A stretch of 64,000 bases of DNA from a virus, in IMG/VR virus record IMGVR_UViG_3300005329_000002, positions 2,670 through 66,669 of that record. One strand, 5' to 3'. Position numbers and translations under genes: made by a program. The number at the start of each line of letters is the position of its first letter. Within the stretch, counting starts at the first letter, position 1. The notes below the pieces were generated by a model, which did no database searches, was not told the DNA's origin, and was given only the letters and a program-made list of their open reading frames with translations. Shown piece by piece: positions 27,848 through 44,427 of this stretch.

Positions 27848-28306
27848 TTAGGTGTAAACGGTTCCCCAATAGTGAATTGAAGTTCCCCACCCGTAAACGT
27901 GCGCCTTGAATTGCGAATAGGCACCGCCGTTGACTTGAGCCGAGTGAAGGTCGCCGCACTGCGTCCAGATAATTCCACCAGCCGGATCGAAATATGCGTC
28001 ACCATAAGCGTGAGCGTTGGGAGCGCACGAGGGGCCAACAAATCCGGAAGTGGACACATAAGCCACTCGCCAATTGTTATATCCGCAAAGCGTCGTCGCG
28101 CCGCCTGTAGGCCCGGTGTACGGAACCCACACGTCAAAATTACAATGCGTTCCGCCGCCCGGATCGCAAGTAACTCCGCAAGTCGTATCCGGAGCTACAG
28201 TTTTCGTTGTAGTTGAATTTGGAGTTGCTGCATGCGCTTCCTGATGATGGCCGATAATTACAGCAAAGGCCAAAAGCGTCAAAACAAGTGCAAGAATTCT
28301 TTTCAT
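27848..28306 (-). CDS. secreted Cys/Gly-rich protein
   Basis: Signal peptide ending AHA-A; AGGAGG RBS; six Cys. Confidence 0.65.
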   Translation of the reverse strand: MKRILALVLTLLAFAVIIGHHQEAHAATPNSTTTKTVAPDTTCGVTCDPGGGTHCNFDVWVPYTGPTGGATTLCGYNNWRVAYVSTSGFVGPSCAPNAHAYGDAYFDPAGGIIWTQCGDLHSAQVNGGAYSQFKAHVYGWGTSIHYWGTVYT

Positions 28307-28315
28307 GCCTTCCTC

Positions 28316-28522
28316 CTATGAAATTAGAGTCCAATGATCCGGCGTTCCGTGATCGCAACGCCAGAAGTGCTGCTGCACGTAGAGCGTGACGCCGTAGTAG
28401 CTCGGGCCGCACTGAGGAAGCTGAACATAGCCGCCTCCATCCCCGCCAATGTTGGAATCCGTACTTGCGTCCGCCGAACAAACGAACGCGAGCGCCACCA
28501 ACAGAATTACAACTAGTTTCAT
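28316..28522 (-). CDS. small secreted peptide
   Basis: Signal peptide ending ADA-S; GGDGGG..C..C. Confidence 0.6.
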   Translation of the reverse strand: MKLVVILLVALAFVCSADASTDSNIGGDGGGYVQLPQCGPSYYGVTLYVQQHFWRCDHGTPDHWTLIS

Positions 28523-28885
28523 TCAGCTACCTCCACTCGTCGTGGTCGCAGAGAGGCTTCCGGGTATTCCTTGCCAGTCTCCGCGTAATTTTTCAAGCGG
28601 AACCAAAGCATTTGATCCTCTCCGTCGAATGCATGCTCTTCAAACACGCGCTGCAATTTGTTTGCTTCCTCCCGTGTCAATTTCATGCTCCACACTTCCC
28701 ACAATAATCGTTGAATGGCTTACCGTGCTGGCAGAGACGAATTTTATTTCCGTCTGCGCCTTTTCCGAAATGATCCTCGATACTTCCTGCCGTATGCCTT
28801 GGCTTTCGCGCTGCCCTGACGCCGCTTAATAGAGAGAAACGCGGCGATGGCTTGTTTTCTGCTTTTCGGTCTTGGCATTTCAATT

Positions 28886-29224
28886 TCACTTTCTCCCGCC
28901 CTTCTTGTCGGGGCTAACTTGAGCGTCAAGCGCCTGCTGTAGCCGCACCATCTCGGCCTCAACAGCATCGATATCAGCCATGCTTCCGCTGAGTTCCTGC
29001 TGCAAGAACGGGTTGTACCTCGGATCTTCTGCTAGGCGCTCCATGAGGTAACCGATAAAGCGGCGCACACGGAGCAGCGGAGTCTTGTCGGGGCTAGCCG
29101 GGATACCACCACCGACCGGGACGTGACGGATACCGCCGCCCGTTGAGCAGGTCGGGCAAGCCGAGCCGACGTAGGAACCGTGGATGCCGCAAGTGTTCGG
29201 CGGAAGCGGTGTCGTGCTGCTCAT
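28886..29224 (-). CDS. hypothetical protein built from repeat-bounded modules
   Basis: CxxH..CxxC N-module; two SPDK repeats. Confidence 0.55.
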   Translation of the reverse strand: MSSTTPLPPNTCGIHGSYVGSACPTCSTGGGIRHVPVGGGIPASPDKTPLLRVRRFIGYLMERLAEDPRYNPFLQQELSGSMADIDAVEAEMVRLQQALDAQVSPDKKGGRK

Positions 29225-29408
29225 GCTGCTCCTTCCGGGGTCTTGTCGGGGCTAGCCAACCCGATCACCTACTCGTAGAGCCAATTTCCGAGCTTCGTCG
29301 TACCAGTAGAGCGCAGTTACTGCGAGGTCGCGGCGGTCTGGCTCGGTCAGGCCATGCTTCGCGTCCACTAGCTCGCGCTCGGTCAGCCTCGGGGTCTTGT
29401 CGGGGTTA
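28903..29408 (-). repeat. four direct repeats TARCCCCGACAAGA at 154-180 bp spacing
   Basis: Plus strand TCTTGTCGGGG(C/T)TA at 28903, 29083, 29241, 29395. Confidence 0.9.
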
Positions 29409-29416
29409 GATTTCAT
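29252..29416 (-). CDS. small hypothetical protein (54 aa)
   Basis: Hand translation MKSNPDKTPRLTERELVDAKHG...; ATG overlaps upstream stop; its TAG lies in the repeat. Confidence 0.5.
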   Translation of the reverse strand: MKSNPDKTPRLTERELVDAKHGLTEPDRRDLAVTALYWYDEARKLALRVGDRVG

Positions 29417-29564
29417 TCTCCTGAGTCCACCGGAAGAGTCCTGAGCCGTTCCTTGGAAAAGACTTCACTTGAAATCTTTCCGTTGCGAATGTGGCTCATG
29501 TGCCGACGATCCCCGGTCGGGATGATGATTCTCCCGTCCTTTGGAATTTCACTCTTGTTGTCGT

Positions 29565-29837
29565 TCAGTGCCGCGAGTTCGTCGGCTCGGTTACGCTTAT
29601 TTCTTGCCACTTCATCACCATCCTTCCGTTGAAATACCCTGTCGGCTCAGTCCGCAAGTGTTCAGGATCACCGAACTTCTTCTCCATTGAAATTACTTCG
29701 TCAGTGCATTCCCAATAGCCAGCGTCACCATCCTTTCTCAGAGCTTTCATGATCGCACCGACCGCTTCCGACATTTCTTCGCCTAGCTCGTCCTTGTCTG
29801 TACCCCGCGCTTCGATCCTGAATCTAGTGATGCCCAT
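29565..29837 (-). CDS. hypothetical protein
   Basis: ORF track, packing. Confidence 0.5.
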   Translation of the reverse strand: MGITRFRIEARGTDKDELGEEMSEAVGAIMKALRKDGDAGYWECTDEVISMEKKFGDPEHLRTEPTGYFNGRMVMKWQEISVTEPTNSRH

Positions 29838-30312
29838 AGAACGCCTGCCTTCGAATTTTCATTAGGAGTCGGCCCAAGTGGTTCTCACCACGATACAAGC
29901 CGTCAACAATTACTTTTCCCCAAAACGTGTCGCCCCAATTGTTCCCCTCGATCAATCGCTCGGGATAAGTGTCGAGAAGCATTTCCAAAAGCGTCTCGTT
30001 TTCCTCCGACTTTCCCAGGAACTTCTTTTTCAAAAGCGATTCCATTACGTCGATCCGCACGTTCTCCCAATCGTGGCGAAGCTCGACCTTTCGGCCCATC
30101 CGTTTTGCTGCGCCAGGAGTTTGAGCCATAGCAATTTCAGACTTCGCACCGAGGTTATGCGTCTTTGCGGCCTGAAAAGCATGTTCGACCGTCGGGAATG
30201 GAATGTTTTCTACCGTGATAGTTACCGGGTAGAAATTGGAGAGAAAGGCGTAATCGCCTGAAAAAGAGGTAATCGAGTTTTGGTAGCCAGGAACAGGAAT
30301 TTCACTACCCAT
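29824..30312 (-). CDS. NADAR (YbiA/DUF1768) family protein
   Basis: FLSNFY, TVEHAFQAAK, AKRMGR, KF, LIEGNNWGDTFWG, GENHLGRLLM.IR. Confidence 0.92.
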   Translation of the reverse strand: MGSEIPVPGYQNSITSFSGDYAFLSNFYPVTITVENIPFPTVEHAFQAAKTHNLGAKSEIAMAQTPGAAKRMGRKVELRHDWENVRIDVMESLLKKKFLGKSEENETLLEMLLDTYPERLIEGNNWGDTFWGKVIVDGLYRGENHLGRLLMKIRRQAFYGHH

Positions 30313-30406
30313 GAAACGGCACCGCCGAGTGGCATACAAAGGTGTCGCCGTCGATCACCCGATCAACTACTGCGTCAAGGTGAGTTGTCAGCAAGGCAAG
30401 TCTCAT
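30305..30406 (-). pseudogene. truncated thermonuclease (SNase) N-terminus, 33 aa
   Basis: GGAGG RBS + MRLALLTTHLDAVVDRVIDGDTFVC...; V.RVIDGDT is the SNase signature; rest absent. Confidence 0.6.
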
Positions 30407-30500
30407 CCGAAACCTCCTAGTCTATTTCCCCATCCGGGGTTGAAATTATTGGGGGCAGGCGTCTTGGAAACCTACCCCCAACGATGAGCGAACTGTGAAA

Positions 30501-30635
30501 TTAGGACTCGGACTGATCGCCGCCCTGTGAACCGCCGTCGGCTGGCGTATCGCCCTCGTCCGTGCCCTCATCGGTTCCGGGCTGCGGAGCGGTGTCCTCC
30601 TGCTCGCCCTCCGGTGGGGTCTGCTCAGTATCCAT
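30501..30635 (-). CDS. 44 aa acidic low-complexity peptide
   Basis: AAAGGGGGTGA RBS; MDTEQTPPEGEQEDTAPQPGTDEG... Confidence 0.5.
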   Translation of the reverse strand: MDTEQTPPEGEQEDTAPQPGTDEGTDEGDTPADGGSQGGDQSES

Positions 30636-30711
30636 GAATCACCCCCTTTGAAATTTTGGGGGTAGCCCTTGCTTGGAGTCGAGGAAGGGGAGTTCCTACG
30701 ATTGACACGAG

Positions 30712-31290
30712 CTACCCCCTTGTGCCGCCGTTAACAATACCACCGTTGTCAAGATTGGTCAACCGGGCACGAGCTTCTGCCGCCCATCGCTCCAAGATTT
30801 CAATTTGTAATCTGAGCGAGGCGTGAGTTTTGATCGGCGAGAAGCGAATCCGAAGAGCTTCTGACCTAGTTCGAAATTCGTATCCACGTTTGCGAAGAAC
30901 GACGTGAAGAGAATTCTGCATGCTCTTGGACGACGCATACCCGAGCGCGCCCCACAGCTTGTCTGAAATTTCCTTAAGGCTTAGCCCTGTCTCGTACAAA
31001 TCGACTATGGCTTGCAGATCGGAATTCTCGATCTTGGCTTTCATCGATTTCCGCGCTGGAATTCCGCGAGCCTCCCTATCCGCGTTTCCGACTTCAAACC
31101 GGACGAGTTCTTGAAATTCCTCAGAAACCCCCGGCGGCGGTGTTTTCAGCCACGGCTCAAAATCGCGGATCGCCCGCTCCGAAAGATTCTTTGATCCCTC
31201 GCGGCGGAGCTTTTCATATTCCCGAGTGTGGTACGCCTTTTCCATCGCGCCGTGCTTCGTCGGCGGGACGTACTTGTTTTTGGTTTTCAC
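30712..31290 (-). CDS. HTH DNA-binding protein
   Basis: IVDLYETGLSLKEISDKL...LRKRGYEFR. Confidence 0.65.
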   Translation of the reverse strand: MKTKNKYVPPTKHGAMEKAYHTREYEKLRREGSKNLSERAIRDFEPWLKTPPPGVSEEFQELVRFEVGNADREARGIPARKSMKAKIENSDLQAIVDLYETGLSLKEISDKLWGALGYASSKSMQNSLHVVLRKRGYEFRTRSEALRIRFSPIKTHASLRLQIEILERWAAEARARLTNLDNGGIVNGGTRG

Positions 31291-31535
31291 GTCACTGACT
31301 CCAAATACGAGATGCCTCGTGCTTCAAGTTCTTTCAAAATTTCTTGCAAGTCGATTTGATATCTGCCGAGCCAAGGAACAGCGACGAGAACAGGCTTGCT
31401 TGGTCGGACGCCGTGAAGGTGCCAACGATCCTTGATATGCCTACAGCGCCGCGCATCTAATTCTTCATTCTGCGCGACAAGTATAAATTGATCCCTGTAC
31501 GCGGCTACGATAAAAGTTGGTTCGGTTTTTTCCAT
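31287..31535 (-). CDS. hypothetical protein
   Basis: GGAGG RBS before ATG 31535. Confidence 0.5.
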   Translation of the reverse strand: MEKTEPTFIVAAYRDQFILVAQNEELDARRCRHIKDRWHLHGVRPSKPVLVAVPWLGRYQIDLQEILKELEARGISYLESVT

Positions 31536-32749
31536 CCCCGCCTCCAAACCATCCGAGTTTTGTAATTGAGCATAAACGGGGAGAACACCATCCCCGCCAA
31601 TAATGCTCTCCCGCTCAAACCGAAAGCATCTACCTCTCGGTTCGTGAAAAAAGATTATCACCGCTGTCAAGGGTAGGACAAGGGTGGGCAAACAGGATAA
31701 AGGATAATTTCAAAAAGCTCCCATTTCGCGGGGTTCCCTCCGTTTCGTTGACCCCTCAGAAAGCCCCCGGCTACATGCGCGTGGGGCACGAGAAGCCTTC
31801 CTGTGCATTCCTAGACCCCATGATCTATCGGGTATGGAGTCCCTTGGCACGAGAGAGAAAGCCCCCGCCTTTTTTGACGAAAAATCCTGTGTATAAGCGC
31901 CCCCGCAGTGTGACGCTGAAAAAGCCCTGCAAATTACAACTTTCCGGTGATAGCAAGATTGAAATTTATTGGGATGGTTGAGCCAAAACTCATATGCTTT
32001 TGAAATTGTATATAGCATCGATATCAAGGTTTCCGAACGACCGTTAGGGTGAGCTTTTCAGAGGGTCGATTTCAGGGAATCTGCGAAGGGATTGAAATGA
32101 AATTCTGCGGGGAGTCCTAGGGTCGAATCCCTGTTCGATCAAGTTTGAAATTCCAGGGTAGCGCTAGGGGTAGTTCTCCCTCTTCGATCCCCTTAGGTTT
32201 TTTCTACTAGTGCAGTGTGTTTGATTGCCCCGAAACAGGAACGACAAGGGTAGGGATACAGTCTGAAATCTAGGCTGCTCTAGCGGGGTTATCTCCCTAC
32301 TGTTCTAGGGGTATTCGGGTGATCCCTCGCGCCGCGAAATTGGGTCTACTTGAAATCCGGATTTTCCCTAGGCCGCATGCGGGATTATGGGTAGTTGTAA
32401 TTGAGCCCTAGCGGGCATGTTTTCGGGGTATCTGAGGGTAGGCCGTTTCTATCGACTCTTGAAATGAAATTAGAGCTTTTCTCCGCGCTATCGGAAGCGC
32501 TTGAAAACGCTCCACCCGAAAGAGGGATTAGGCGGATTTCCCTCGGTGCCGATGGGTCAAGCTCAATGGTTACTTGGCACGAGGATACGAGGATTCCCCT
32601 AGGACGCTCTGAGAGCGTTTCTAAGCCCGCGAAATGGTTCGGCCTAGCTCGACTCTTGCCTAGCCGGAATCGAAGGCTTACGCGCCGAATCAATCGCGAT
32701 TCCCTCGCGCGCGCGGACGTGGCGCGGACGATGCGCAACCCGAACTAAC

Positions 32750-32778
32750 TCGCAACCCTCTTTGAAATTTGCTACTCT
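32750..32778 (+). promoter_or_regulatory. candidate promoter of the plus-strand operon
   Basis: TCGCAA-17 bp-TACTCT with TG extension; predicted start falls at a cUUCGg hairpin. Confidence 0.45.
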
Positions 32779-32783
32779 CTGAT

Positions 32784-33090
32784 TTCCCCTTCGGGGGAAC
32801 GCGCCAGACATAGCAGGAACCGGAGCAGGGATCAACGGCGACCGATTGCTCACTAGGCCGCTAAATAGAGTCTCCGAGCGAATACCGGGAAATGCGCAAG
32901 TGAAGTGAAATTCCCTTCAGGCGGAACGAGGATTCGACCGCGCTGGAAATTGGAATTTCCCCTAGTAGATTCGGGGTAGGCCGTTCAAGTTTGAAGCTTG
33001 CGGAACCGCGCACGGTCGAAGAGGGAGAAACCGAAATCCGTACAGGCGTCTAAGAGCCGAATTCTGCTCGGGGGAGAAAAGTAACTGAAC
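32784..33090 (+). ncRNA. candidate structured leader RNA
   Basis: TTCCCC-TTCG-GGGGAA hairpin; TTCGACCG (32933-40)/CGGTCGAA (33013-20) stem; no convincing ORF; no family recognised. Confidence 0.4.
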
Positions 33091-33132
33091 GATCATTCTC
33101 AGCGTTTCACTAGCCGCTGTTCTCTTCGGCTG

Positions 33133-33470
33133 GACGCTGAGACTCAATAGAGCGATTGACCGAACCATTCCGACAGAAAGGTTCGATCATGACCCAGCGA
33201 GATTTTGAATTCATCGCTTCGATTTTGGCAGAAGCCGAAACCATGATTCACGAAGCTCACGGAGATATCGGCGCTGACCGAATCCGCAATTTCATTCGTC
33301 AGCGTTTCGAAGATGAACTAGCGAAGCGGCATCCCCGTTTCGACCGTGGCCGATTCGACGTAGCCGCTTCACCTATCGCCAATGCCGAACTACGTCAGCG
33401 GATTATCGATTCGCTGAACAAGTAAGCCCAATTCGAAATTCGGTCAATCGTTCTATTGAGTCTCAGCGTT
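33133..33470 (+). repeat. inverted repeat S2 (33133-33164 / 33439-33470), 32 bp, 2 G-U, nested in S1
   Basis: GACGCTGAGACTCAATAGAGCGATTGACCGAA / TTCGGTCAATCGTTCTATTGAGTCTCAGCGTT. Confidence 0.95.
33189..33425 (+). CDS. hypothetical protein (78 aa)
   Basis: CCGACAGAAAGG RBS; MTQRDFEFIA...HPRFDRGRF pattern common in phage early proteins. Confidence 0.75.
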   Translation: MTQRDFEFIASILAEAETMIHEAHGDIGADRIRNFIRQRFEDELAKRHPRFDRGRFDVAASPIANAELRQRIIDSLNK

Positions 33471-33492
33471 TCATCCGACAGAAAGGGAACAA

Positions 33493-34668
33493 GTGTCTAA
33501 GGAATTCCGATACGGAACCAAGCGCTACATGATCGCCGAACTAGTCGAAAACGGGCTCAATCGAATTTCCGTTTTCCAGAAGCTTCGGCCAATGGTAGAG
33601 CAGCAAATTCCGCCAATGGTTTTCAAGCGAAACGTTAAGGGTCAGGGTCGCCAGCCTAAACCGCTTTCGGAGCAATTGATTGAACTCAAAAACGAGATCA
33701 ATCGCGTGTTTGCTCTACTCGGTCATGCCGACGACGGAAGCTTGACCGCTGACGATTCCGAACCAATCGCGGACGTTGAAATTCCGGAAGAGGAAGAGCT
33801 AGAGGAAACGCAAGAGGAAGAAGAAGAAGAGCGGAAGCCCGTAGCGTCAGGGAAGGTCAAGATCAAAAACGAGCTTGAGAAATTCCTTCGGCGCGTCAGA
33901 GAAATTCGGAAGTTCTGCGAAGATAGAGCCGAGCTTTCCGAACCAATCGACTCGATTTCAATTCGTCCCGCGATGGCTGCGGGTCAATTGATTCCAGCGG
34001 GCATTCCTGCCGACGCTCTCTTGGATTCAATGACTATGCATTGGCCAAAAGACGTGCGCAGGGATGCGGGTATCTCAGACTTCGATTTCGTTTCGTTCTC
34101 GCTTGAAATTCTTGCGAAGCGCGGAATTACTGAAGTGATGGGAAAGCCTGTTCACAAGCTCTTCGGTTATGCCTTGATTCTTGCGGAGTGCCGACAACCA
34201 ATCATGTTGATCGGCCCAGCCGGAACGGGGAAGAGTCACCTAGCTAGGCAACTAGCGGATTACCTTGAAATTCCCTACAAAGAAACACCGATGAGTCCTG
34301 GCGCGACGCGCGGAGACTTGCTCGGGCGCCACACTGTAGGCGGATTCATTCCAGCCGCATTTCCTGAAATTTATGCGGGTGGCGGGATCTTCAATTTCGA
34401 GGAAATGGACGCTAGTGATTCCTCGCTTTTGATCGTGCTCAATAACGCTCTTGCGGGAAACAAGCTCTACAATTCCGCGAACGGTGAAGAGTATGAGCGA
34501 AGCGAGGATTTCATCGCAGTATCGACCGCTAACACCTTCGGCCTAGGCGCGAATCGCGACTACACTGCACGAGAGCGATTGGACGCCGCAACAATTGACC
34601 GATGGCGGATGGGTCGAATTTGGATTCCGCTGGACGAGAACGTCGAGGAATCCTTGCTCTACAACTAA
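33493..34668 (+). CDS. MoxR/CbbQ/CobS-like AAA+ ATPase
   Basis: Walker A GPAGTGKS, Walker B FNFEEMD, TANTFG.GA..Y..R..LDAATIDRW. Confidence 0.9.
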   Translation: MSKEFRYGTKRYMIAELVENGLNRISVFQKLRPMVEQQIPPMVFKRNVKGQGRQPKPLSEQLIELKNEINRVFALLGHADDGSLTADDSEPIADVEIPEEEELEETQEEEEEERKPVASGKVKIKNELEKFLRRVREIRKFCEDRAELSEPIDSISIRPAMAAGQLIPAGIPADALLDSMTMHWPKDVRRDAGISDFDFVSFSLEILAKRGITEVMGKPVHKLFGYALILAECRQPIMLIGPAGTGKSHLARQLADYLEIPYKETPMSPGATRGDLLGRHTVGGFIPAAFPEIYAGGGIFNFEEMDASDSSLLIVLNNALAGNKLYNSANGEEYERSEDFIAVSTANTFGLGANRDYTARERLDAATIDRWRMGRIWIPLDENVEESLLYN

Positions 34669-34715
34669 CCAATTAGCCGCTTGAGAACAGCGGCTAGTGA
34701 AGCGCTGAGAATGGA

Positions 34716-35830
34716 CGATTAGTTGAGCTTCACTGAGGGCTAACCTTCGGTCGAATGAAATCCGACAGAGAGGAAATTCTCGTGAAGCGAATCGTCAACA
34801 CCTTCCCTGCTAAGTGTCGCGATTGCGGCGGAATCCTTCCAAAAGGATCGACCGTAAAATGGGCTAAAGGTTTCGGGGTTACTCACCTAACGTGTCGCAA
34901 CCCTGAAATCGTCAATAAGCCAACCAATCCGCCACCTAGCGCTCAGTCAATTTCTAAGCCTGCCAAACAGTATGATCCGAATTGGGTTATCGATTGGCCA
35001 GACTTGAAAGAGACTCTTCGGAACTTCGCTTTTAAGAGTGAATTTCCGAAAGGCATGAATCAGTCACTCAAAAATTACTTTCATGGGAATTTCTCCTTTG
35101 GTAAGGAATGGACGGGTGGCGATATCGAAAACCTCAAGCGCTACATTACTGAGGGTTATCGAACTACTGCAATTCAAGGGTTGGCTGGACTTGTTCCGCC
35201 AATTCGCGAAAAGCGTAGGCTCAAATACGGGGAAGAGGGAGATGAATTCAACTACGATATTGCAATGTCCGGAGACGAAAATTACATGTCTTTTTGGACG
35301 AAAAGAGAGCAGATTCCCGGCGTTAAGCTTTCACTAGAGCTTGACGGTTCAGCGGGATCAACTGACGCTCTAATGAAATATCAACGTTGGATGGCACAAT
35401 CGATTTACGCGCTGGAAGCTGCGGGTGTCGATTGCGAGGTTGAAATCTTCACTCTTTCGCGCAATTTGTTTAGGCCGCAAGCGGCTATTGCGAGAACAGC
35501 GGTTCGAGTGAAAAACAGCGGTGAAATTGCAGACTTCGCGGGAATCTCCGCGATGTTCTCCCCGCTTGCTTTTCGCGGAATCATGTTCGGCTGTTTCTCG
35601 CTTCAAGCTCACGAAATGGGCCTAAGTCAAGTCGGCCACGGTTCAGGCGTCACTAACCGCTGGCGCTGCTATTACAATCCGGAAATTCACGCGATTGTTT
35701 CGGATTGTGATTGGCACGCAACTACGTTCCCCGAAGAGCAACATACGGAGCAATTCAAGCAAGCAATCCGCGATATGAAATCGCAAGTAGGAGACTGAGG
35801 GCTTAGCCCTCAGTAAAGCTCAACTAATCG
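34716..35830 (+). repeat. inverted repeat S3 (34716-34743 / 35803-35830), 28 bp, extendable by 9 bp
   Basis: CGATTAGTTGAGCTTCACTGAGGGCTAA / TTAGCCCTCAGTAAAGCTCAACTAATCG (one C-A); CCTTCGGTC pairs GACTGAGGG after one bulge. Confidence 0.95.
34782..35798 (+). CDS. vWA-like partner of the AAA+ ATPase, with N-terminal Zn ribbon
   Basis: CRDC...HLTC; LSLELDGSAGS (degenerate MIDAS), ALEAAGVDCEVEI, VKNSGE; adjacency to MoxR-like ATPase. Confidence 0.65.
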   Translation: MKRIVNTFPAKCRDCGGILPKGSTVKWAKGFGVTHLTCRNPEIVNKPTNPPPSAQSISKPAKQYDPNWVIDWPDLKETLRNFAFKSEFPKGMNQSLKNYFHGNFSFGKEWTGGDIENLKRYITEGYRTTAIQGLAGLVPPIREKRRLKYGEEGDEFNYDIAMSGDENYMSFWTKREQIPGVKLSLELDGSAGSTDALMKYQRWMAQSIYALEAAGVDCEVEIFTLSRNLFRPQAAIARTAVRVKNSGEIADFAGISAMFSPLAFRGIMFGCFSLQAHEMGLSQVGHGSGVTNRWRCYYNPEIHAIVSDCDWHATTFPEEQHTEQFKQAIRDMKSQVGD

Positions 35831-35880
35831 AGTGAATTTCATTGAGCGCTTCCCTAACTCTGACAGAAGGGAAACGCAAA

Positions 35881-36060
35881 ATGACACGTTCCGAATTCCA
35901 GAATCGTTGTGACGAAATCGCGACTGAGGAAGCGAATGAAAATTGGGATTCCGCTTCCGTACTTCGCAGGATCGCAGGCGAGATTGGAACGGTAGCGCTC
36001 GACTTCGACGCTGACGTTTCAATGCATGCCGATTTCGGAGAGGTTATCGAGAATGCTTAG
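35881..36060 (+). CDS. small acidic hypothetical protein (59 aa)
   Basis: GACAGAAGGGA RBS. Confidence 0.65.
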   Translation: MTRSEFQNRCDEIATEEANENWDSASVLRRIAGEIGTVALDFDADVSMHADFGEVIENA

Positions 36061-36289
36061 GGAACTCGATAGCCGCGAAAACGATCGAATTACGGTTCGG
36101 CTTTTGTGGAACGATTCCGCAAAAATCGATCCGACAGTGAGCGAATTTCAAGTGAAGGTGATCGATGCGAAAGAGGGAGAGCGTTTCTCAATTTCACTCG
36201 ATACCTTCAACGCTGCTAGGGAGGCTTATTTTCATCCCTACGGTGTCCGCGATTCGCTACTGAAAAGCGGGAAAGTAGCAGCAAACTAG
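36053..36289 (+). CDS. hypothetical protein (78 aa)
   Basis: RELDSRENDRITVRLLW...AREAYFHPY; overlaps previous stop. Confidence 0.65.
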   Translation: MLRELDSRENDRITVRLLWNDSAKIDPTVSEFQVKVIDAKEGERFSISLDTFNAAREAYFHPYGVRDSLLKSGKVAAN

Positions 36290-36929
36290 AGCGCTCCAAT
36301 TCCAGGGAAGCGCTCAATGAAATTCATTCGGCAGAAAGGGAATTCCTAACCGGGCTAGGGTAGCTACCGGAGGGTCGCCCCTGCGCGCGTATCGGGGAAT
36401 TCCATTTCAAATTTCAGAAGTATTTACCTAGGATTTCGCTGGTATTTCGCGCCAGTTTAACGTCAGAATTTCAGGATCGGAATGAACGCCGAATTGAATG
36501 CGGCGCGGTGCAAACCAACCATGCATTCGGCCAACTGAAATTCCGGAAGGTGCTGAAGCTCTGAACATGGGCCACTTGCTTTAATTTGAGCCGCAATTGC
36601 GTTCCGGTCTGATCCGCCTGGAAGGGGAAGCTTCCTGCGCTCTGCGGCGGGAGCGCGTGAGGCGATCTAGGCGCAATTGCGGCTCGGGTGAGCTATACCC
36701 CCTCGCGACGGCCTTCAAACCCCTCAGACGGGCTTAGGTGGCCTTGTGCATGCCATCCCTGCCTGCGCATTTCAACGTACAGGCACATAGGAGCCTTTCT
36801 GACGCCCTCCTAGCTCGGCTGCGGGTCAGGAGTCGCACGACTGATCGCGGAGCCTTAGAAGGGCTTACAGGCGCTCGGCGCGGCGCTCGGTTTTTCGGCG
36901 CTCGACGCATACCCCACCCAACGCAAAGA

Positions 36930-36945
36930 GCCGGGTTTCCCCGGC
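36930..36945. terminator. hairpin at convergence of plus- and minus-strand early transcription
   Basis: GCCGGG-TTTC-CCCGGC. Confidence 0.5.
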
Positions 36946-37080
36946 CCCTCGCGTTTCTCCGACAGAAACTTTGAAATTTAGTCGGCTAGCACTCCCAATT
37001 GCCTACATTGAACGCGAGCCAGTCCTGAAATGTGCGCATGTGCTGGAACGTGAACCACAGGCATTCCCACGAGTAGCGGA

Positions 37081-37410
37081 TCATGATTGAACCTCGGGGA
37101 ACTCGGGCAGAATGTAGCTCGCGTCCATTGTGTTCTTGGCCACGATTGTCAGCCCGAATTCCTCATCGAGAATTTCAAGAATCTTCACTAGCTCGGGAGC
37201 GTGAAGGTAGCTCGTCCATGCGTGTCGGCGCTCGTCCCATCGAAAGCTCTCGCCTTTCAGAAATTCCACGACTCCCGGCTCTCTGAGTCCGCCGCCGCGA
37301 ATCATCGCGAGCGGTGCGCCACTTGGAAAGCCGCGAGCGTAGATGATCTTGGTGCTGCGCTTGCCTTTGAAATTCTTTGGTGTGTTGATCTTCGTCATGG
37401 TGGCGAGCAT
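37081..37410 (-). CDS. hypothetical protein
   Basis: FLKGESFRWDERRHAW (HARP-like pattern). Confidence 0.55.
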   Translation of the reverse strand: MLATMTKINTPKNFKGKRSTKIIYARGFPSGAPLAMIRGGGLREPGVVEFLKGESFRWDERRHAWTSYLHAPELVKILEILDEEFGLTIVAKNTMDASYILPEFPEVQS

Positions 37411-37616
37411 CAGTTGAGGCTGAAAAAGAACTTGACGCCGAACTCGCGCCAGCACTCGACGTGATCGGTGCATGCGTTCGTCGGCATAAGGATTCGCATG
37501 TATTCGACATACTCGTCCGTGAGCCTGCACTGAGCGGCAATTCCCATTTCCTGCCCCTCCACTTCGACTGTCTCAAGAATCTCGATCATTGTGTTCCCCT
37601 TTCTGTCGGTAGCGAC

Positions 37617-37645
37617 AGCCTATCAAATTTCTATTCGGCTGTCAA
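37617..37645 (-). promoter_or_regulatory. sigma70-type promoter
   Basis: TTGACA-17-TAGGCT with TG extension; followed by CCGACAGAAAGG RBS. Confidence 0.8.
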
Positions 37646-38089
37646 GGGGGAATTTGAAATCAGCCATTGAAGCGTTTCCCTGAGATAACCAAGGCGAACG
37701 ATCCGCTCTGGAAGCTGGTTCATCCGATCCTTTTCAACGGCCTCTTTCATCTTGCGGATTTCACGGCGCATCGAGCTAACGAGCAGCCGTGCCTGATGAA
37801 ATTCTAGCTCGCTCACGATCCCAACCAAAGTATCACGAGGTAAGCGACCACAAGCCAGAACAGGCAGAGCCAGAGAAGAACTGTCCGCAATTCCATTAGC
37901 CCTCGTCCTTCCGGCACTCGTTCCAATACTGCCAGAGCCAGAGCGCACAAGCGAGAATTGCAATTACACGAACCGTGGTGTTGCTGAAATGCGGCCCGAT
38001 TACGTTGTGCTGCCACCAAGTGTAATTCGGGTGAATGACTTCCACGAGGTTGAAAGCGAACAGGAATGCTGCGAGCCATTTTCCCCACT

Positions 38090-38344
38090 TCATGACTTGG
38101 CCTTTGCCTTCTTCGACTTCTTGACCTTTTTCACGGGCTTGTTCCACGAGCGCGGATTCTCAATGAATCCATCGCCAGCAAGCTCGGTGTATTCGCTCTG
38201 ATCGCGCAAGCGCTGAAGCTCTGAAATCGCGTTGCGGCAAGCGTAGCGAATGATCTTGTCCTTGTTGCGAAGCTTCCACCAGCGCTTTACCTGCCCGCGA
38301 AAGTGCTTTTGCAATTTCGTTTTCCGTGCGCCCTTGACCTTCAT
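38090..38344 (-). CDS. basic hypothetical protein
   Basis: K/R-rich ORF, packing. Confidence 0.55.
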   Translation of the reverse strand: MKVKGARKTKLQKHFRGQVKRWWKLRNKDKIIRYACRNAISELQRLRDQSEYTELAGDGFIENPRSWNKPVKKVKKSKKAKAKS

Positions 38345-38475
38345 GACTCGATCCTTCGAAGCGCTGCGATCAACGTCCTGATTTCACTCGCTCGACGCTC
38401 GCGGTGTGGCCAGAGCGCTGCGATCCTTTCCCTGAAGCTCGTTCCCATGATGATCCTTTCTGTCGGTGTTCCACC

Positions 38476-38504
38476 ACTCTAGCAAATAGAAATTCGTTTG
38501 TCAA
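38476..38504 (-). promoter_or_regulatory. sigma70-type promoter
   Basis: TTGACA-17-TAGAGT. Confidence 0.85.
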
Positions 38505-38641
38505 GTCTTTCCTTTGTTCCTCAGAACCCATCTGCCATTCGTGAATTTGTAAACGCGCCCACACGAACAGCGCTTGACTAGGGGATGATCCGTGTTGAGA
38601 ACGTACCTCGTGACAACGAATTTATGCTTGTGATTCTTCAT
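38501..38641 (-). CDS. leaderless small protein (46 aa)
   Basis: ATG 7 nt from the -10 box; MKNHKHKFVVTRYVLNTDHPLVKRCSCGR... Confidence 0.55.
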   Translation of the reverse strand: MKNHKHKFVVTRYVLNTDHPLVKRCSCGRVYKFTNGRWVLRNKGKT

Positions 38642-38647
38642 GCCGTG

Positions 38648-38676
38648 ATCCTAGCATAATGAAATTCGGTTGTCAA
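38648..38676 (-). promoter_or_regulatory. sigma70-type promoter
   Basis: TTGACA-17-TAGGAT. Confidence 0.85.
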
Positions 38677-38877
38677 GTACCAAAATGAAATGACCCTCCC
38701 GCCGTAGTGAGAGGGCCATTTCTCTGAGCCGCCAGAAAGGTGTAAAGAACGGCTCAGTCTTTCCAATCCACAATTTCATATCATCAATGTTGGTCTTACG
38801 CTACCGGGAACGACCCGGATTTTTCACGTCAGTCCGCGTAGCTGCCATGATCCTAATTTACGCTTCTAAATTCAACT

Positions 38878-39198
38878 CTAACCTCCTGGTGCGCATGCCG
38901 TAGGCGTCACCGTGACCGAGACGTGCGGATTCCATGCCCCGACATAGATCGCCGTGACGTGCGTGTAGTCCGGCGAATCCGCTCGGGTTACATGGTGCCC
39001 GTCAACGACAATCTCCATAATTTCACAAGAGTAGTCTGCCGTGAAATTCGTTGCATTGTCGTTGAACGTGAAGCTGTGAACAGTCTCAGTCGGTGCCGAC
39101 GAAAGAGCGGGCTTGCTCTGCGCGTCATGAATCGCGCTGAAATACAGAGCCACGAAACAGAACGCTGCGAGAATGAGTCCGATCTTCTTCAATTTCAT
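38878..39198 (-). CDS. secreted hypothetical protein
   Basis: AAAGGGGGT RBS; MKLKKIGLILAAFCFVALYFS signal peptide. Confidence 0.6.
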   Translation of the reverse strand: MKLKKIGLILAAFCFVALYFSAIHDAQSKPALSSAPTETVHSFTFNDNATNFTADYSCEIMEIVVDGHHVTRADSPDYTHVTAIYVGAWNPHVSVTVTPTACAPGG

Positions 39199-39364
39199 AC
39201 ACCCCCTTTCGGCTTGTTGTAGTGCGATCCGCCCCAAGCATACCCACGCCCTCGGCGGCACAAGTGCAATCCTCCGTGGCCATACTCGCGTGTGCAAATA
39301 TAACCCTCGGGTGAGCGAGCTAGACAACGCCCACCAAGCAGCATTTCAAGGACGCGACCGAGCA

Positions 39365-39664
39365 TCAGTTGTCCCTCGCAATTTCACTGCGCCTCGCGTC
39401 GAGAAGAGCCTCCACGAGCATTTCAGCGTGCATGGTGTCGCCTGCAATCGAGCCGAGAATCAAGCTGATTGGAATTGGCTGCTGGCCCAACGATCCCATC
39501 ACAACGGCGGATAGAACAATGATGGCCTTCAGTCGCATCGCCACGTCGCCAACCGTGAATTCCTCTTCTCGCTCGGCGGCAAGCTCGTCAACGACCTTCT
39601 TGATTTCGTTGACCGCCTCACCCAAGTTCTTGCCATCCATATCAGGCATTTGAAATTCTGACAT
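39365..39664 (-). CDS. hypothetical protein
   Basis: GACAGAAAGGGG RBS downstream of promoter. Confidence 0.6.
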   Translation of the reverse strand: MSEFQMPDMDGKNLGEAVNEIKKVVDELAAEREEEFTVGDVAMRLKAIIVLSAVVMGSLGQQPIPISLILGSIAGDTMHAEMLVEALLDARRSEIARDN

Positions 39665-39695
39665 TTCGATCCCCTTTCTGTCTGATCGGTAATTC

Positions 39696-39724
39696 ACTCT
39701 AGCATCCCTAGGAGGGATTGTCAA
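39696..39724 (-). promoter_or_regulatory. sigma70-type promoter with ATCCCTAGGAGG spacer motif
   Basis: TTGACA-17-TAGAGT. Confidence 0.85.
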
Positions 39725-39960
39725 GCACGAAAGTTCCGCCTAGCTCAACCACTTCCTCAGCCGTGAGCGGGTGGTGATTACAGTCGCCGCAATTGTCCGG
39801 CTGCTTGCAGACAGGACAAAGCTCAGTGCCCTCGGGCCACTGAATTTCGGAATTCATCTGAGCCTGCTGGCGCTCGGCTGCGCTCCTGTAATCCATTTCA
39901 AGCTGAACATCGTGCTTCTGCTCGTGTTCCTGCTGCGCTCGCCGTGCCCTCTCGATTTCC

Positions 39961-40188
39961 TCACGCATTGCGCACCCCCAACTGAAGATCGCACTCAAGC
40001 TTGAACTGAAATTCGCCTGCGATGAAGCGAAGGTGTTCAAGCTCTTCGATGGCATGCTTCAACTCGTCGCGTGTCGGCTCGTGATCCGGCTCGGAGAAGA
40101 TTTCAGCGACCTCCCCGAATTCCTCCGCGACCTTTGCGAGCCAGACGGACGGCGGGTAATCCTTGGCTGTCCACTTCTTGCGGTTCAT
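39961..40188 (-). CDS. MazG-like NTP pyrophosphohydrolase
   Basis: WLAKVAEEFGEVAE...IEELEHL (EExGE..EELxD-like). Confidence 0.6.
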   Translation of the reverse strand: MNRKKWTAKDYPPSVWLAKVAEEFGEVAEIFSEPDHEPTRDELKHAIEELEHLRFIAGEFQFKLECDLQLGVRNA

Positions 40189-40216
40189 GCTGCCCCCTTT
40201 CTGTCGGTGTCGCCAC

Positions 40217-40245
40217 ACTCTAGCAGAATGAAATTCGCTTGTCAA
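40217..40245 (-). promoter_or_regulatory. sigma70-type promoter
   Basis: TTGACA-17-TAGAGT. Confidence 0.85.
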
Positions 40246-40248
40246 GTC

Positions 40249-40512
40249 TTACCAACCTCGACTGCGAAAGGAATCATCCCGAACGCTGCTCCAACCCTGA
40301 TTTGTAATTGGCTCGATCTGCCCTTCGTCAAGAAGCTCGCTGCCCGCGAACACTGCGTACTTGCCGTCCTTGTGCGCGAGAACGTGAATATGGTGGAATT
40401 TCAGTTTCATCACTTCGCCGTCCTCTAGCTCTTCTAGCTCGCACTCAAGCTCGTCAACGTAACCGCGTGTCCGCTCGACAAGCGCTCTCAGTTGTCCTCT
40501 AGTGATCTTCAT
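40249..40512 (-). CDS. hypothetical protein
   Basis: GGAGG RBS. Confidence 0.55.
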   Translation of the reverse strand: MKITRGQLRALVERTRGYVDELECELEELEDGEVMKLKFHHIHVLAHKDGKYAVFAGSELLDEGQIEPITNQGWSSVRDDSFRSRGW

Positions 40513-40796
40513 TTCCGCCTCCCTATTCGCTTTTCAATTTCAATCACTGCGGGGTAAACCTCCGGTGCTGTGGGATCGCCGTGCTGGTGTTGCTCTGTGA
40601 CGTTGAGATTGTAATTGTGCTGATCCCTGTGGAATGCGTTTGCGATATCCCGCGCTGCTCCGATCATCGCATCCACGAGGAACATCAGAATTCCAATCCC
40701 CATGATCCCGTAAAACGTTTCATGCCAACTCGCTCCGAACCCTTGAAAAAGAACTACCAACACGAGCGTCGTCAATAGAAATTGTCTCATTCGCAA
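40509..40796 (-). CDS. membrane protein (2 TM)
   Basis: Two hydrophobic segments; AGGAGG RBS. Confidence 0.6.
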   Translation of the reverse strand: MRMRQFLLTTLVLVVLFQGFGASWHETFYGIMGIGILMFLVDAMIGAARDIANAFHRDQHNYNLNVTEQHQHGDPTAPEVYPAVIEIEKRIGRRK

Positions 40797-40818
40797 ACCT
40801 CCTAGGGATAGTTCTCTG

Positions 40819-40854
40819 AAAAAAACAGAGGGGAGGGAATTTCACCCTCCCCTC
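40819..40854 (-). terminator. rho-independent terminator
   Basis: GAGGGGAGGG/CCCTCCCCCTC stem followed by TGTTTTTTT on the minus strand. Confidence 0.8.
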
Positions 40855-40868
40855 GACGGAACCCTCAC

Positions 40869-41630
40869 CTAGCGCTTGCGAGCGGCCTTGCGTCCTGCCT
40901 TCTTAGCCGCTGCGCGGCCTCCTGAGCGCTTCGTGGCCTTAGCCTTGGTCGTGCTGCCCTTTGGCCGTCCGCGCCCGCGAGAAGCCTTCTGAGTGCCCTT
41001 GCTGGCCGACTTCCGCGAGCCTGCCCGCTTGAACTTCCCTTCGCCCGTTCCGCCAGTGCCGTACTCGACGCGATTCTTGGACTCGGTGTGCTGTCCAGTC
41101 GCCATCGCGAACGCCCAAGCGTTTCTTGAAATTAGGTAGCGAAGGTAATCCTGCCGCTCGGACTTGTTGCGAGTGCGGCCCTGCCGCGTCCGCTTCGGCA
41201 CGAGCTTGTCGATCTTCGGAAGCAGCGCCTTGTAAGCCTGCTCACGATTTCCCTTCGCCTTGCGAAGAGCCTTGACGATCACGTCCGGCACGGAACCCTC
41301 GCGGGGATTCCAACCGTCCGTCTTGCTGAATTTCACGTTGCCGAGCGTGTTGCGTCCGCCCTTGTTGCCGTTGGACGTGGACGCGCTCGCCTTGCGGGTA
41401 GTCGCCTTGCGCGTGGTCGCCTTCTTTGCTGGCCGTCCGCGCTTCGCAACTGCCTTGCTCGCCTTCGTCGCCTTTTTCACGACGCGCTTGCCGCGAGCCT
41501 TCGTGCCGCTGCCGTTCGATGCCTGAGCGATCAGCTTCTTAAGCTCAGCGCTCGACTCTGCGGCGCGAATTTCCTTTACCGGGACTCCGGCCTGCTTCGC
41601 CTTGTCCCTCAGAGCCTTCATGCCTGCCAT
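40869..41630 (-). CDS. histone-like Lys/Arg/Ala-rich DNA-binding protein
   Basis: KKATTRKATTRKA repeats, KRGRP/RGRGRP AT-hook-like motifs flanking a folded core; own promoter and terminator. Confidence 0.7.
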   Translation of the reverse strand: MAGMKALRDKAKQAGVPVKEIRAAESSAELKKLIAQASNGSGTKARGKRVVKKATKASKAVAKRGRPAKKATTRKATTRKASASTSNGNKGGRNTLGNVKFSKTDGWNPREGSVPDVIVKALRKAKGNREQAYKALLPKIDKLVPKRTRQGRTRNKSERQDYLRYLISRNAWAFAMATGQHTESKNRVEYGTGGTGEGKFKRAGSRKSASKGTQKASRGRGRPKGSTTKAKATKRSGGRAAAKKAGRKAARKR

Positions 41631-41681
41631 TGCTGGCCTCCCTTCGTTGACTTCGGGCTTGCTTGCTCAATCACGCTGGAC

Positions 41682-41710
41682 AATTTATCAGCCCTCGCAG
41701 AATTTGTCAA
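41682..41710 (-). promoter_or_regulatory. sigma70-type promoter
   Basis: TTGACA-17-TAAATT. Confidence 0.75.
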
Positions 41711-41719
41711 GGGGTAAAT

Positions 41720-42112: not shown

Positions 42113-42350
42113 CGCTGCTCGGCCTTCCTGGTCGCAAGTCCGCGATGATCGCAAGAATTTCACGCGCCTGATCTGGACTCCAAAGCCTGACCTGATTCTG
42201 GCCGCGCTTCACTCGTGCCGCTTTTGGAATTCGACCTTGCCGCTCAAGCTGCCTGATCCTAGACGGATCACGCTTCACGAATCGAGCTAGCTCAGCGATG
42301 GTGTAATAGTCCCTGAACTTCTTCGGCTTTAGAAATTCTAAGTCCCTCAT
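42102..42350 (-). CDS. MerR-like HTH protein
   Basis: YTIAELARFVKRDPSRIRQLERQGRIP...RLWS. Confidence 0.8.
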   Translation of the reverse strand: MRDLEFLKPKKFRDYYTIAELARFVKRDPSRIRQLERQGRIPKAARVKRGQNQVRLWSPDQAREILAIIADLRPGRPSSDGS

Positions 42351-44398: not shown

Positions 44399-44427
44399 TG
44401 CTTCCCCTTTCGTCGCGTGTATTTGAG

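What the first reader, a model, noticed from the sequence alone, without database searches (positions are those of the whole stretch)
33094..36330. Operon in which every gene block is looped out by its own ~30 bp long-range stem (pre-rRNA-like architecture)
Seen: four different inverted repeats. S2 (33133-64/33439-70) encloses the 78 aa gene. S1 (33094-124/34683-713) encloses S2 plus the AAA+ ATPase. S3 (34716-43/35803-30, plus 9 bp) encloses the vWA-like gene. S4 (35829-55/36304-30) encloses two small genes. S1, S3 and S4 abut within 2 nt, and the arms fill almost all intergenic space. Each loop contains its own RBS and complete ORF(s). Four of five mismatches in the core arms are G-U on the plus strand, which points to selection on the folded transcript. 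Known: rRNA precursors use such stems for RNase III release, whereas T7 early RNase III sites are local hairpins. Inference: a possibly undescribed expression system that cuts a polycistronic early RNA into end-paired, nuclease-resistant (possibly circularised) mRNAs. The alternative is a DNA-level system of hairpin-bounded cassettes that excise, invert or are exchanged.
Basis: partly seen in the sequence, partly recalled or inferred. Interest (0 to 1): 0.93.

Follow-up and report, generated by a model that had tools for sequence, protein, structure and literature searches.

The report
Phage genes looped out by RNA stems
In one operon of an uncultured soil phage and its relatives, each gene block lies between two complementary stretches that have stayed able to pair while their sequences changed, so the message probably folds like a ribosomal RNA precursor and is cut into separate end-paired messages.

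Summary
Four long-range inverted repeats (27-31 nt cores, 27-40 bp in the full fold) enclose the gene blocks of one plus-strand operon. They are the only such repeats in the complete 66.7-kb phage genome; 100 shuffles gave none.

All eight relatives I could fetch (ATPase 46-62% identical where measured) have the same layout, mostly with different arm sequences. That makes 31 stems in 9 phages, with compensatory changes between the closest pair. In two complete relatives these stems are also the only ones in the genome.

G·U mismatches outnumber A·C 36 to 18, and the sense-strand duplex is the more stable in 19 of 31 stems, against 6 for the antisense strand. This favours selection on the plus-strand RNA.

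The phage encodes no RNase III, RNA ligase or recombinase.

Best reading: pre-rRNA-like processing helices on an mRNA, cut by host RNase III. Cutting is inferred, not shown. Circular RNA and DNA cassettes are unsupported.

I found no paper describing this layout. Earlier notes of this scan report the same architecture in other phage genomes.

The parts
32770..32778 (+). Possible extended -10 element (TGC + TACTCT) of the operon's promoter; weak and inferred only
   Evidence: Read from the sequence. It resembles the TGC-TAGAGT of the minus-strand early promoters. No site reached 9 of 12 matches with a good -35 box on the + strand. Relatives have comparable weak or extended -10 sites 20-40 nt before their leaders (read).
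33094..33124 (+). S1 5' arm (helix runs 33090-33132 in the full fold)
33134..33164 (+). S2 5' arm
33170..33181 (+). Leader CCGACAGAAAGG (TCCGAC box plus Shine-Dalgarno), 7 nt before the start of the 78-aa gene
33189..33425 (+). 78-aa gene in loop S2; no family hit and no homologue at this position in the relatives
33439..33469 (+). S2 3' arm. It sits where other relatives have the ATPase 5' arm, and its end repeats 13 nt of the S1 5' arm
   Evidence: sequence read.
33475..33486 (+). Leader CCGACAGAAAGG before the ATPase start codon (GTG 33493)
33493..34668 (+). 391-aa AAA+ ATPase (Pfam AAA_5, PHROG 249 CobS-like) with a family-specific N-terminal half
34683..34713 (+). S1 3' arm (34674-34717 in the full fold)
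34716..34743 (+). S3 5' arm (34718-34752 in the full fold)
34755..35798 (+). DUF7192 protein, 347 aa from ATG 34755. The leader at 34762-34773 points to GTG 34783 as the real start. Most orthologues have an N-terminal Cys-rich stretch
35803..35830 (+). S3 3' arm
35829..35855 (+). S4 5' arm. Its inner end GCGCTTCCCT is complementary to the Shine-Dalgarno region AGGGAAACGC downstream
   Evidence: sequence read.
35881..36060 (+). 59-aa gene, preceded by leader CTGACAGAAGGG at 35860-35871
36026..36289 (+). 87-aa ORF; start at 36026 or, more likely, at the ATG 36053 that overlaps the upstream stop. Conserved in 4 relatives at the same position
36304..36330 (+). S4 3' arm
36331..36410 (+). Trailer: an orphan leader-like GGCAGAAAGGGAA, a conserved ACCGG...ACCGGAGGGT element and a GCCCCT...GGGG hairpin. 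In relative L197 this hairpin is a clear intrinsic terminator

Best explanation
The four inverted repeats are long-range helices of the plus-strand polycistronic mRNA. Each closes a loop that holds one cistron block with its own leader (TCCGAC box, Shine-Dalgarno sequence, start codon), as the leader-trailer helices close 16S and 23S rRNA in an rrn precursor. Proposed course:

1. The operon is transcribed as one RNA from a weak promoter upstream of 33083 to a terminator near 36400. This is inferred: no internal promoters were found, and the arms fill the intergenic space.
2. While a cistron is being transcribed, its free 5' arm tends to pair locally with the ribosome-binding region. This is predicted by folding only, and the effect is modest.
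3. When the 3' arm emerges, the 27-47 bp helix forms and frees the ribosome-binding site. The helices are predicted by folding, and their conservation is shown.
4. Such near-perfect duplexes are substrates of host RNase III, which would cut the precursor into separate mRNAs. This step rests on the published specificity of RNase III and was not observed here.
5. The 5' and 3' ends of each mRNA would stay paired, which should slow exonucleases. This is inferred.

The phage supplies no nuclease of its own.
For: - **Rarity.** The four stems are the only such repeats in the 66.7-kb genome; 100 shuffles gave 0. All four are in the MFE fold of the 3.3-kb transcript.
- **Conservation.** The layout is present in 8 of 8 fetched relatives, whose DUF7192 protein is only about 30-37% identical: L117, L118, L119, L197, L198, L199 and L281, L283. 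Arm sequences are mostly unalignable (median z 1.4 and -0.2).
- **Exclusivity in relatives.** In two complete relatives of 70.2 and 74.4 kb, the five operon stems are the only long-range repeats in the genome.
- **Compensatory change.** Between L118 and L197 there are 5 double changes in the ATPase stem and 1 in the last stem. In the DUF7192 stem, 2 C-G pairs became U-G.
- **Strand asymmetry.** Over 31 stems there are 36 G·U mismatches against 18 A·C (binomial p = 0.0099). The sense duplex is more stable in 19 stems, equal in 6 and less stable in 6 (Wilcoxon p = 0.0007). With 12-nt flanks on the first 26 stems it was 22 to 4.
- **Placement.** Arms lie only in intergenic space. In this window the 5' arm ends 4-18 nt before the TCCGAC leader and the 3' arm starts 4-14 nt after the stop codon; the relatives look the same.
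- **Terminators.** Plus-strand intrinsic terminators follow the last stem in L197 and L283.
- **RBS masking.** Predicted unpaired probability of the ribosome-binding window is 0.36 with the native free 5' arm, 0.47 with a shuffled arm and 0.55 with the arm engaged (27 stems; shuffled versus native p = 7e-5).
- **Published precedent.** B. subtilis RNase III cuts long-range intramolecular mRNA duplexes of 10-36 bp with up to 505 nt between the cuts (PMC11780869, section 24 read).
Against: - No RNA data exist. No listed sequencing run is on record as RNA, and only assembled contigs could be laid, so no transcript end or cut was seen.
- The G·U excess is moderate. L197 goes the other way (0 G·U, 3 A·C) and L283 is balanced (6 and 6). 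A strand-biased mutation process or pairing in plus-strand single-stranded DNA could also produce it.
- No convincing promoter was found for the operon in any of the first 7 loci.
- The loops are translated and up to 1.7 kb long, and co-transcriptional formation of such helices on an mRNA has not been demonstrated.
- TTGAG/CTCAA occurs in 13 of 31 stems. This hints at a sequence-specific factor that need not be RNase III.
- Part of the RBS-masking effect is trivial, because removing a pairing partner always raises accessibility. The non-trivial part is small (0.36 versus 0.47).
Confidence: 0.6

Rival explanations
1. The helices form in the RNA but are not cut. They would insulate each cistron structurally: keep each ribosome-binding site in a fixed context, hide intergenic RNA from Rho or RNase E, or bring stop and start codons together so ribosomes re-initiate. 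The message would stay polycistronic.
For: Everything that supports RNA-level pairing supports this equally. The predicted masking of the ribosome-binding site by the free 5' arm needs no cleavage. The arms fill nearly all intergenic space.
Against: Near-perfect duplexes of 27-47 bp lie in or above the 10-36 bp range of duplexes that RNase III was seen to cut in vivo in B. subtilis (PMC11780869). My recollection that E. coli behaves alike was not checked against PMC6212723. Escaping the enzyme would need a special reason. Short local hairpins would suffice for insulation or Rho blocking, so this does not explain why the pairing must span the whole cistron.
Confidence: 0.2
2. The repeats act in DNA as ends of cassettes that invert, excise or are exchanged, or as hairpins in single-stranded DNA.
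For: Cargo differs among relatives: the small genes upstream of the ATPase are not homologous, and the number of stems ranges from 2 to 5. In this window the inserted 78-aa loop is bordered by a 13-nt duplication of the S1 arm. G·T pairs are also tolerated in DNA hairpins.
Against: The complete phage genome has no serine or tyrosine recombinase and no Y1 transposase. All blocks have the same orientation in 9 of 9 loci. No joint or strand switch appeared in the contigs of three DNA runs, though contigs drop rare variants. Each stem has its own sequence, so one site-specific enzyme could not serve them all. The arms are placed exactly around ribosome-binding sites and stop codons of a single transcription unit.
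Confidence: 0.07
3. After cutting, the paired ends are ligated to give circular or permuted mRNAs.
For: Only geometry. The helices abut with no unpaired bases, so cut ends would lie close together.
Against: The phage has no RNA ligase (PF09414) and no RtcB. RNase III products with 2-nt 3' overhangs are not nicks that a ligase can seal. No RNA data exist.
Confidence: 0.03

Closest known systems
Leader-trailer processing helices around 16S and 23S rRNA in bacterial rrn operons, cut by RNase III
   Same: Long-range complementary flanks enclose each product of one precursor. The helices are about 30-45 bp, adjacent helices abut, and pairing is conserved while sequence changes. Seven of 8 relatives also have a short U/A-rich box just before the first 5' arms, recalling boxA. 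The idea that the transcription complex delivers the 5' strand to its distant partner is described for rrn complexes (PMC8632103, passages read).
   Different: The loops hold translated ORFs with ribosome-binding sites, not stable RNAs. The published gamma-proteobacterial boxA consensus is not enriched in the leaders. Cleavage is not shown. The operon belongs to a phage.
Long-range intramolecular mRNA duplexes cut by RNase III in B. subtilis (PMC11780869) and E. coli (PMC6212723)
   Same: These are mRNA duplexes of 10-36 bp formed by segments hundreds of nucleotides apart and cut with a 2-bp stagger (section 24 of PMC11780869 read).
   Different: They are scattered single cases, up to 505 nt apart, with no reported pattern of one helix per cistron. 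Here the spans are 274-1,558 nt (up to 1,702 nt in relatives), and every block of the operon is enclosed.
RNase III sites between the early genes of phage T7 (recalled from memory; Dunn and Studier)
   Same: A phage polycistronic mRNA is cut between cistrons by host RNase III, and the products are stabilised by the remaining structure.
   Different: T7 sites are local hairpins in the intergenic regions. Here the two strands of each helix lie on opposite sides of the gene.
icaR 5'-3' UTR pairing in Staphylococcus aureus (PMC3868564, abstract read)
   Same: [quoted passage not shown]
   Different: In icaR the 3' UTR pairs with the Shine-Dalgarno sequence and represses translation. Here the arms lie upstream of the leader and leave the Shine-Dalgarno sequence outside the helix.

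Membership tests
Pre-rRNA-type RNase III processing helix | Complementary segments flank the whole product and form a helix of about two turns or more | tested here: met
   Helices of 27-40 pairs in the full fold, with loops of 274-1,558 nt.
Pre-rRNA-type RNase III processing helix | Pairing is kept in relatives through changes on both strands | tested here: met
   8 of 8 relatives have the stems, mostly with different sequences. L118 and L197 differ by 6 compensatory double changes.
Pre-rRNA-type RNase III processing helix | Staggered RNase III cuts (2-nt 3' overhang) inside the helix | not testable with these tools
   No RNA run holds the sequence; only contigs could be laid.
Pre-rRNA-type RNase III processing helix | The enclosed product is a stable non-coding RNA | tested here: not met
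   In this window the loops hold ORFs of 59-391 aa with leaders. Some relatives have an additional non-coding loop of about 130-190 nt upstream.
rrn-type antitermination leader (boxA) | A boxA matching the consensus lies in the transcribed leader before the 5' strand | tested here: inconclusive
   A box GRACWTTGAAAAY lies just before 5' arms in the leaders of 7 of 8 relatives. The published consensus GYTCTTTAANA (PMC5725501) gave 4 hits with up to 2 mismatches in 5.85 kb of leaders, against 0.47 per kb elsewhere. The host and its own boxA are unknown. That boxA in other phyla carries G at position 8 is my recollection only.
T7-type intercistronic RNase III site | A local hairpin within one intergenic region | tested here: not met
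   The two arms of each helix are 274-1,558 nt apart, on either side of the genes.
DNA cassettes or invertible segments (integron attC, invertons) | A recombinase, sites shared between cassettes, and alternative orientations or empty sites | tested here: not met
   No resolvase, tyrosine recombinase or Y1 transposase. Each stem has its own sequence. Orientation is the same in 9 of 9 loci.
5'-3' UTR pairing that blocks the Shine-Dalgarno sequence (icaR type) | The 3' segment pairs with the Shine-Dalgarno sequence itself | tested here: not met
   The Shine-Dalgarno sequence lies 10-35 nt downstream of the 5' arm, outside the helix.

The most novel reading that the evidence does not exclude
The closing helices are a modular 'gene socket' for phage mRNA. 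Each helix would license translation only once its cistron has been fully transcribed, because the free 5' arm masks the ribosome-binding site until the 3' arm displaces it. The helix would then be cut by RNase III into an end-clamped message. New genes would enter by duplicating an arm, as the nested 78-aa loop with its 13-nt arm duplication suggests. That would make this a general, so far undescribed way for phages to express and swap genes within one transcript.
Probability: 0.3. Interest if true: 0.85.

Novelty: new variant of a known kind. Interest (0 to 1): 0.7.

Why it matters
If the helices work as proposed, bacterial viruses use the logic of ribosomal RNA maturation for protein-coding genes: one transcript is punctuated by gene-spanning helices into separately stabilised, separately translated messages.

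This would be a new principle of operon organisation. It would also be a natural counterpart of the RNA-processing insulators built in synthetic biology, and it would explain how phages keep expression constant while swapping cargo genes.

It is directly testable. A 3.7-kb fragment expressed in a wild-type and an rnc-mutant host should show whether the cuts occur. Arm and compensatory mutations should show whether pairing controls yield.

Earlier notes of this scan report the same layout in several unrelated phage genomes, so the phenomenon may be widespread.

Tried and rejected
- **RNA families.** An Rfam scan of 28000-40000 at E up to 1 found nothing, and there are no tRNAs in the window. 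I found no ribozyme or known RNA family at the arms.
- **Sequencing runs.** No RNA holder is listed. Laying four runs gave contigs only, with no joints, inversions or informative ends. One 239-nt contig of a run labelled RNA ('probably DNA') crosses the S1/S3 junction uncut and carries no weight.
The best repeat is 21 nt at 76% (I8). The duplex energy of leader against trailer was -196.8, against -182 +/- 7 for 40 shuffled trailers. I judge this not convincing.
- **Close relatives.** A single-protein scan of viral contigs found none, and isolate phages share only the ATPase C-terminal half at 40% identity or less. A genome-contig scan found no relative. The leader pattern scan of viral contigs returned roughly the number of hits I estimated for chance.
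- **More distant ATPase loci.** L120-L196 and L200-L206 lack the stems, so the layout does not simply go with AAA_5 ATPases.
- **A vWA-like nature of DUF7192.** There is no support from Pfam, NCBIfam or the PDB profile search.
- **boxA.** The published consensus is not enriched. In this window the candidate CTCTTTGAAAT (32760) belongs to a motif that is common across the genome and may lie inside the promoter spacer.
- **Formal covariation count with the count of structure pairs.** I abandoned this because MAFFT aligned this window's S2 3' arm with the other phages' ATPase 5' arm. I counted pairs in Python instead.
- **Literature.** Nine searches found no description of per-cistron long-range helices in a phage operon. 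One search was wasted on a poor search term. Supplements were not opened.

Full report
**What is there**

The window is 64,000 of the 66,669 bases of one complete virus record with direct terminal repeats. It is a tailed phage with baseplate, portal, terminase, helicase and a large DNA polymerase. Nearly all long ORFs are on the minus strand.

One island, 33083-36410, is coded on the plus strand. It carries these genes:
- a 78-aa gene;
- a 391-aa AAA+ ATPase (Pfam AAA_5, PHROG 249);
- a 347-aa DUF7192 protein;
- two small genes of 59 and 87 aa.

**The observation**

They are the four best inverted repeats of the window. They are also the only ones of at least 24 nt with at most 2 mismatches and a 60-4000 nt loop in the whole genome; 100 dinucleotide-preserving shuffles produced none.

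The minimum-free-energy fold of the 3,341-nt RNA 33040-36380 contains all four as helices of 40, 29, 34 and 27 pairs. No unpaired base lies between S1 and S3, or between S3 and S4.

The core arms have four mismatches: three are G·U on the plus strand and one is C·A.

**Anatomy of a unit**

After each 5' arm come 3-18 nt, then a conserved leader (CCGACAGAAAGG here, TCCGAC-N-GRAAGG in the relatives), then the start codon 6-9 nt later. In this window the 3' arm begins 4-14 nt after the stop codon.

The same leader follows four of the strong TTGACA-17-TAGAGT or TAGGCT promoters of the small minus-strand early genes at 37645, 38504, 39724 and 40245. So the plus-strand cistrons use the same translation leader as the early genes but have stem arms where those genes have promoters.

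No comparable promoter lies on the plus strand upstream of the operon in this window or in six relatives. A weak extended -10 element at 32770-32778 is the best candidate here.

After S4 comes a trailer whose conserved hairpin is a clear intrinsic terminator in relative L197. In L283 a terminator follows the DUF7192 gene directly. The island therefore looks like one plus-strand transcription unit.

**Relatives**

The ATPase has hundreds of homologues at 50-68% identity on contigs of 65-76 kb. Scans with alignments recovered eight related loci:
- L117, L118 and L119;
- L197, L198 and L199;
- L281 and L283.

All eight have the same layout. The ATPase gene is enclosed by a helix in 8 of 8, and so is the DUF7192 gene (only 17 nt in L283). 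The small genes downstream are enclosed wherever the contig reaches them. Counting this window, that gives 31 stems in 9 phages.

The DUF7192 proteins are only about 30-37% identical to the window's. Nucleotide similarity to the window is confined to coding regions, apart from one trailer match.

In the two complete relatives (70,178 and 74,373 nt), the five operon stems are the only long-range repeats of the whole genome. More distant phages that share only the ATPase domain lack the stems.

**Evidence that pairing is selected**

The closest pair, L118 and L197 (ATPase 85% identical), differ as follows:
- five compensatory double changes in the ATPase stem;
- one compensatory double change in the last stem;
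- two C-G to U-G changes in the DUF7192 stem;
- five broken pairs in all.

Some arms share a core (AGCGTTTCAYTGA in the ATPase 5' arms of this window, L118 and L283). TTGAG/CTCAA occurs in 13 of 31 stems, against a mean of 1.5 in shuffled arms (maximum 7 in 2,000 shuffles). This may reflect common descent, a preference of the nuclease, or another factor. I cannot tell which.

**RNA or DNA**

I defined the stems with a scoring that treats G·U as a mismatch. Over the 31 stems there are 36 G·U, 18 A·C and 22 other mismatches on the plus strand (binomial p = 0.0099). Without L197 the count is 36 to 15.

The sense-strand duplex is more stable than the antisense one in 19 stems, equal in 6 and less stable in 6 (Wilcoxon p = 0.0007). 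With 12-nt flanks on the first 26 stems it was 22 to 4.

L197 is an exception (0 G·U, 3 A·C) and L283 is balanced.

The local base composition has both G over C and A over T slightly positive. It therefore does not predict this bias.

The complete phage genome has none of the following:
- RNase III;
- a dsRNA-binding domain;
- an RNA ligase or RtcB;
- a serine recombinase, a tyrosine recombinase or a Y1 transposase.

All gene blocks have the same orientation in all nine loci.

Together this favours a structure of the sense transcript that relies on host enzymes. It leaves little support for DNA cassettes or for ligation into circles.

**Mechanism**

It is published that RNase III cuts long-range intramolecular mRNA duplexes of 10-36 bp whose strands lie up to 505 nt apart in B. 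subtilis (PMC11780869, section 24 read). Its in vivo rules in E. coli centre on paired stems (PMC6212723, passages read). Near-perfect helices of 27-47 bp should therefore be cut if they form. This step is inferred, not observed.

A second, weaker inference comes from folding the 5' part of each unit. The ribosome-binding window (-15 to +3) has a mean unpaired probability of:
- 0.36 with the native free 5' arm;
- 0.47 with a shuffled arm;
- 0.55 when the arm is engaged elsewhere.

This is over 27 stems, with shuffled above native at p = 7e-5. In S4 the inner end of the 5' arm (GCGCTTCCCT) is complementary to the Shine-Dalgarno region, and the 3' arm begins with a copy of that region. Formation of the closing helix may thus release the ribosome-binding site only when the cistron is complete.

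**Leader**

Upstream of the first coding loop, relatives carry one or two non-coding loops of about 100-190 nt closed by shorter stems. In 7 of 8 relatives a box GRACWTTGAAAAY lies just before 5' arms.

From memory this resembles the boxA of rrn leaders in several phyla. The published gamma-proteobacterial consensus GYTCTTTAANA (PMC5725501) is not enriched in the leaders, and the host is unknown, so this stays open.

The model in which the rrn transcription complex holds the leader and delivers the 5' strand to its distant complement is described in PMC8632103 (passages read).

**Cargo turnover**

The ATPase, DUF7192 and the 87-aa protein are orthologous across the phages. The small genes upstream are not, and the number of stems ranges from 2 to 5.

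In this window and in L119, an extra small-gene loop is nested inside the ATPase helix. Here the S2 3' arm occupies the place of the other phages' ATPase 5' arm, and its end repeats 13 nt of the S1 5' arm. This suggests that new loops arise by arm duplication.

**Comparison and novelty**

The layout works like the processing helices of an rrn precursor, but it encloses translated genes. It differs from three published cases:
- T7's local RNase III hairpins (recalled from memory);
- the scattered long-range RNase III duplexes of cellular mRNAs;
- icaR, where the 3' UTR pairs with the Shine-Dalgarno sequence itself (PMC3868564, abstract read).

Nine full-text searches found no description of per-cistron gene-spanning helices in a phage operon. 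Supplements were closed.

Earlier notes of this scan describe the same architecture in at least eight other phage genomes. These are unchecked AI notes and not independent evidence, but they suggest the layout is recurrent.

**Verdict**

RNA-level selection for pairing is well supported by comparative evidence. Cleavage, stabilisation and translational gating are reasoned inferences awaiting RNA data.

Noticed in passing
window 33170-33181, 33475-33486, 34762-34773, 35860-35871 (+); 37598-37609, 38455-38466, 39673-39682, 40196-40207 (-); orphans at 36328-36339 and 61273-61284 (+): A leader CCGACAGAAAGG (8 exact matches to the degenerate pattern, 0.18 expected) sits 6-9 nt before start codons. 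It follows sigma-70 promoters on the minus strand and stem arms on the plus strand. The TCCGAC part is kept in most relatives (not seen before L281's starts), so it is more than a Shine-Dalgarno sequence. It may be a site for a translational regulator or nuclease.
   Followed up: partly
window 37617-47613 (-): Near-consensus promoters TTGACA-16/17-TAnnnT with a TG extension lie before small minus-strand genes. Several carry the spacer CGAATTTCATT, a near-palindrome GAAT-N3-ATTC that also occurs in the S4 arms. It may be an operator.
   Followed up: partly
L117 5435-5602; L118 about 5647-5800; L197 about 2842-2990; L198 about 1894-2050; L199 about 520-720: Non-coding loops of about 100-190 nt closed by their own stems lie upstream of the first coding loop. 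L118 and L197 share two hairpins with compensatory changes and a box TAGYGGCC. This may be a small RNA or an antitermination element released from the same precursor.
   Followed up: partly
L117 5429 and 5610; L118 5638 and 5810; L197 2832 and 2994; L198 1883; L199 511 and 733; L283 3401: A box GRACWTTGAAAAY lies immediately before 5' arms in the leaders. By my tally from the lists, that is about 2.7 per kb in leaders against about 0.2 per kb elsewhere on the + strand of these loci. It looks like boxA by recollection, but the published consensus did not confirm this.
   Followed up: partly
L117 7236-7249, 8179-8192, 8886-8899; L199 2443-2456, 3513-3526, 3873-3886: The outer 14 nt of two neighbouring helices share one strand (an X, X', X arrangement). 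The bases of adjacent stems are therefore mutually exclusive, which would impose an order of folding or cutting.
   Followed up: no
whole window: TTGAAAT/TGAAATT-type words are far more frequent than expected: a 10-mer pattern with 1 mismatch gave 52 matches against 22.5 in shuffles. They occur on both strands and inside genes. The meaning is unknown.
   Followed up: no
window 31700-33080: About 1.4 kb without a convincing ORF lies between the minus-strand structural genes and the operon. It is not conserved at the nucleotide level in relatives, which have a similar gap. It presumably holds divergent promoters and the structured leader.
   Followed up: partly
window 36053-36060: The ATG at 36053 overlaps the stop of the 59-aa gene and follows a GGAGAGG box. 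The last two genes are therefore probably translationally coupled inside one loop.
   Followed up: no
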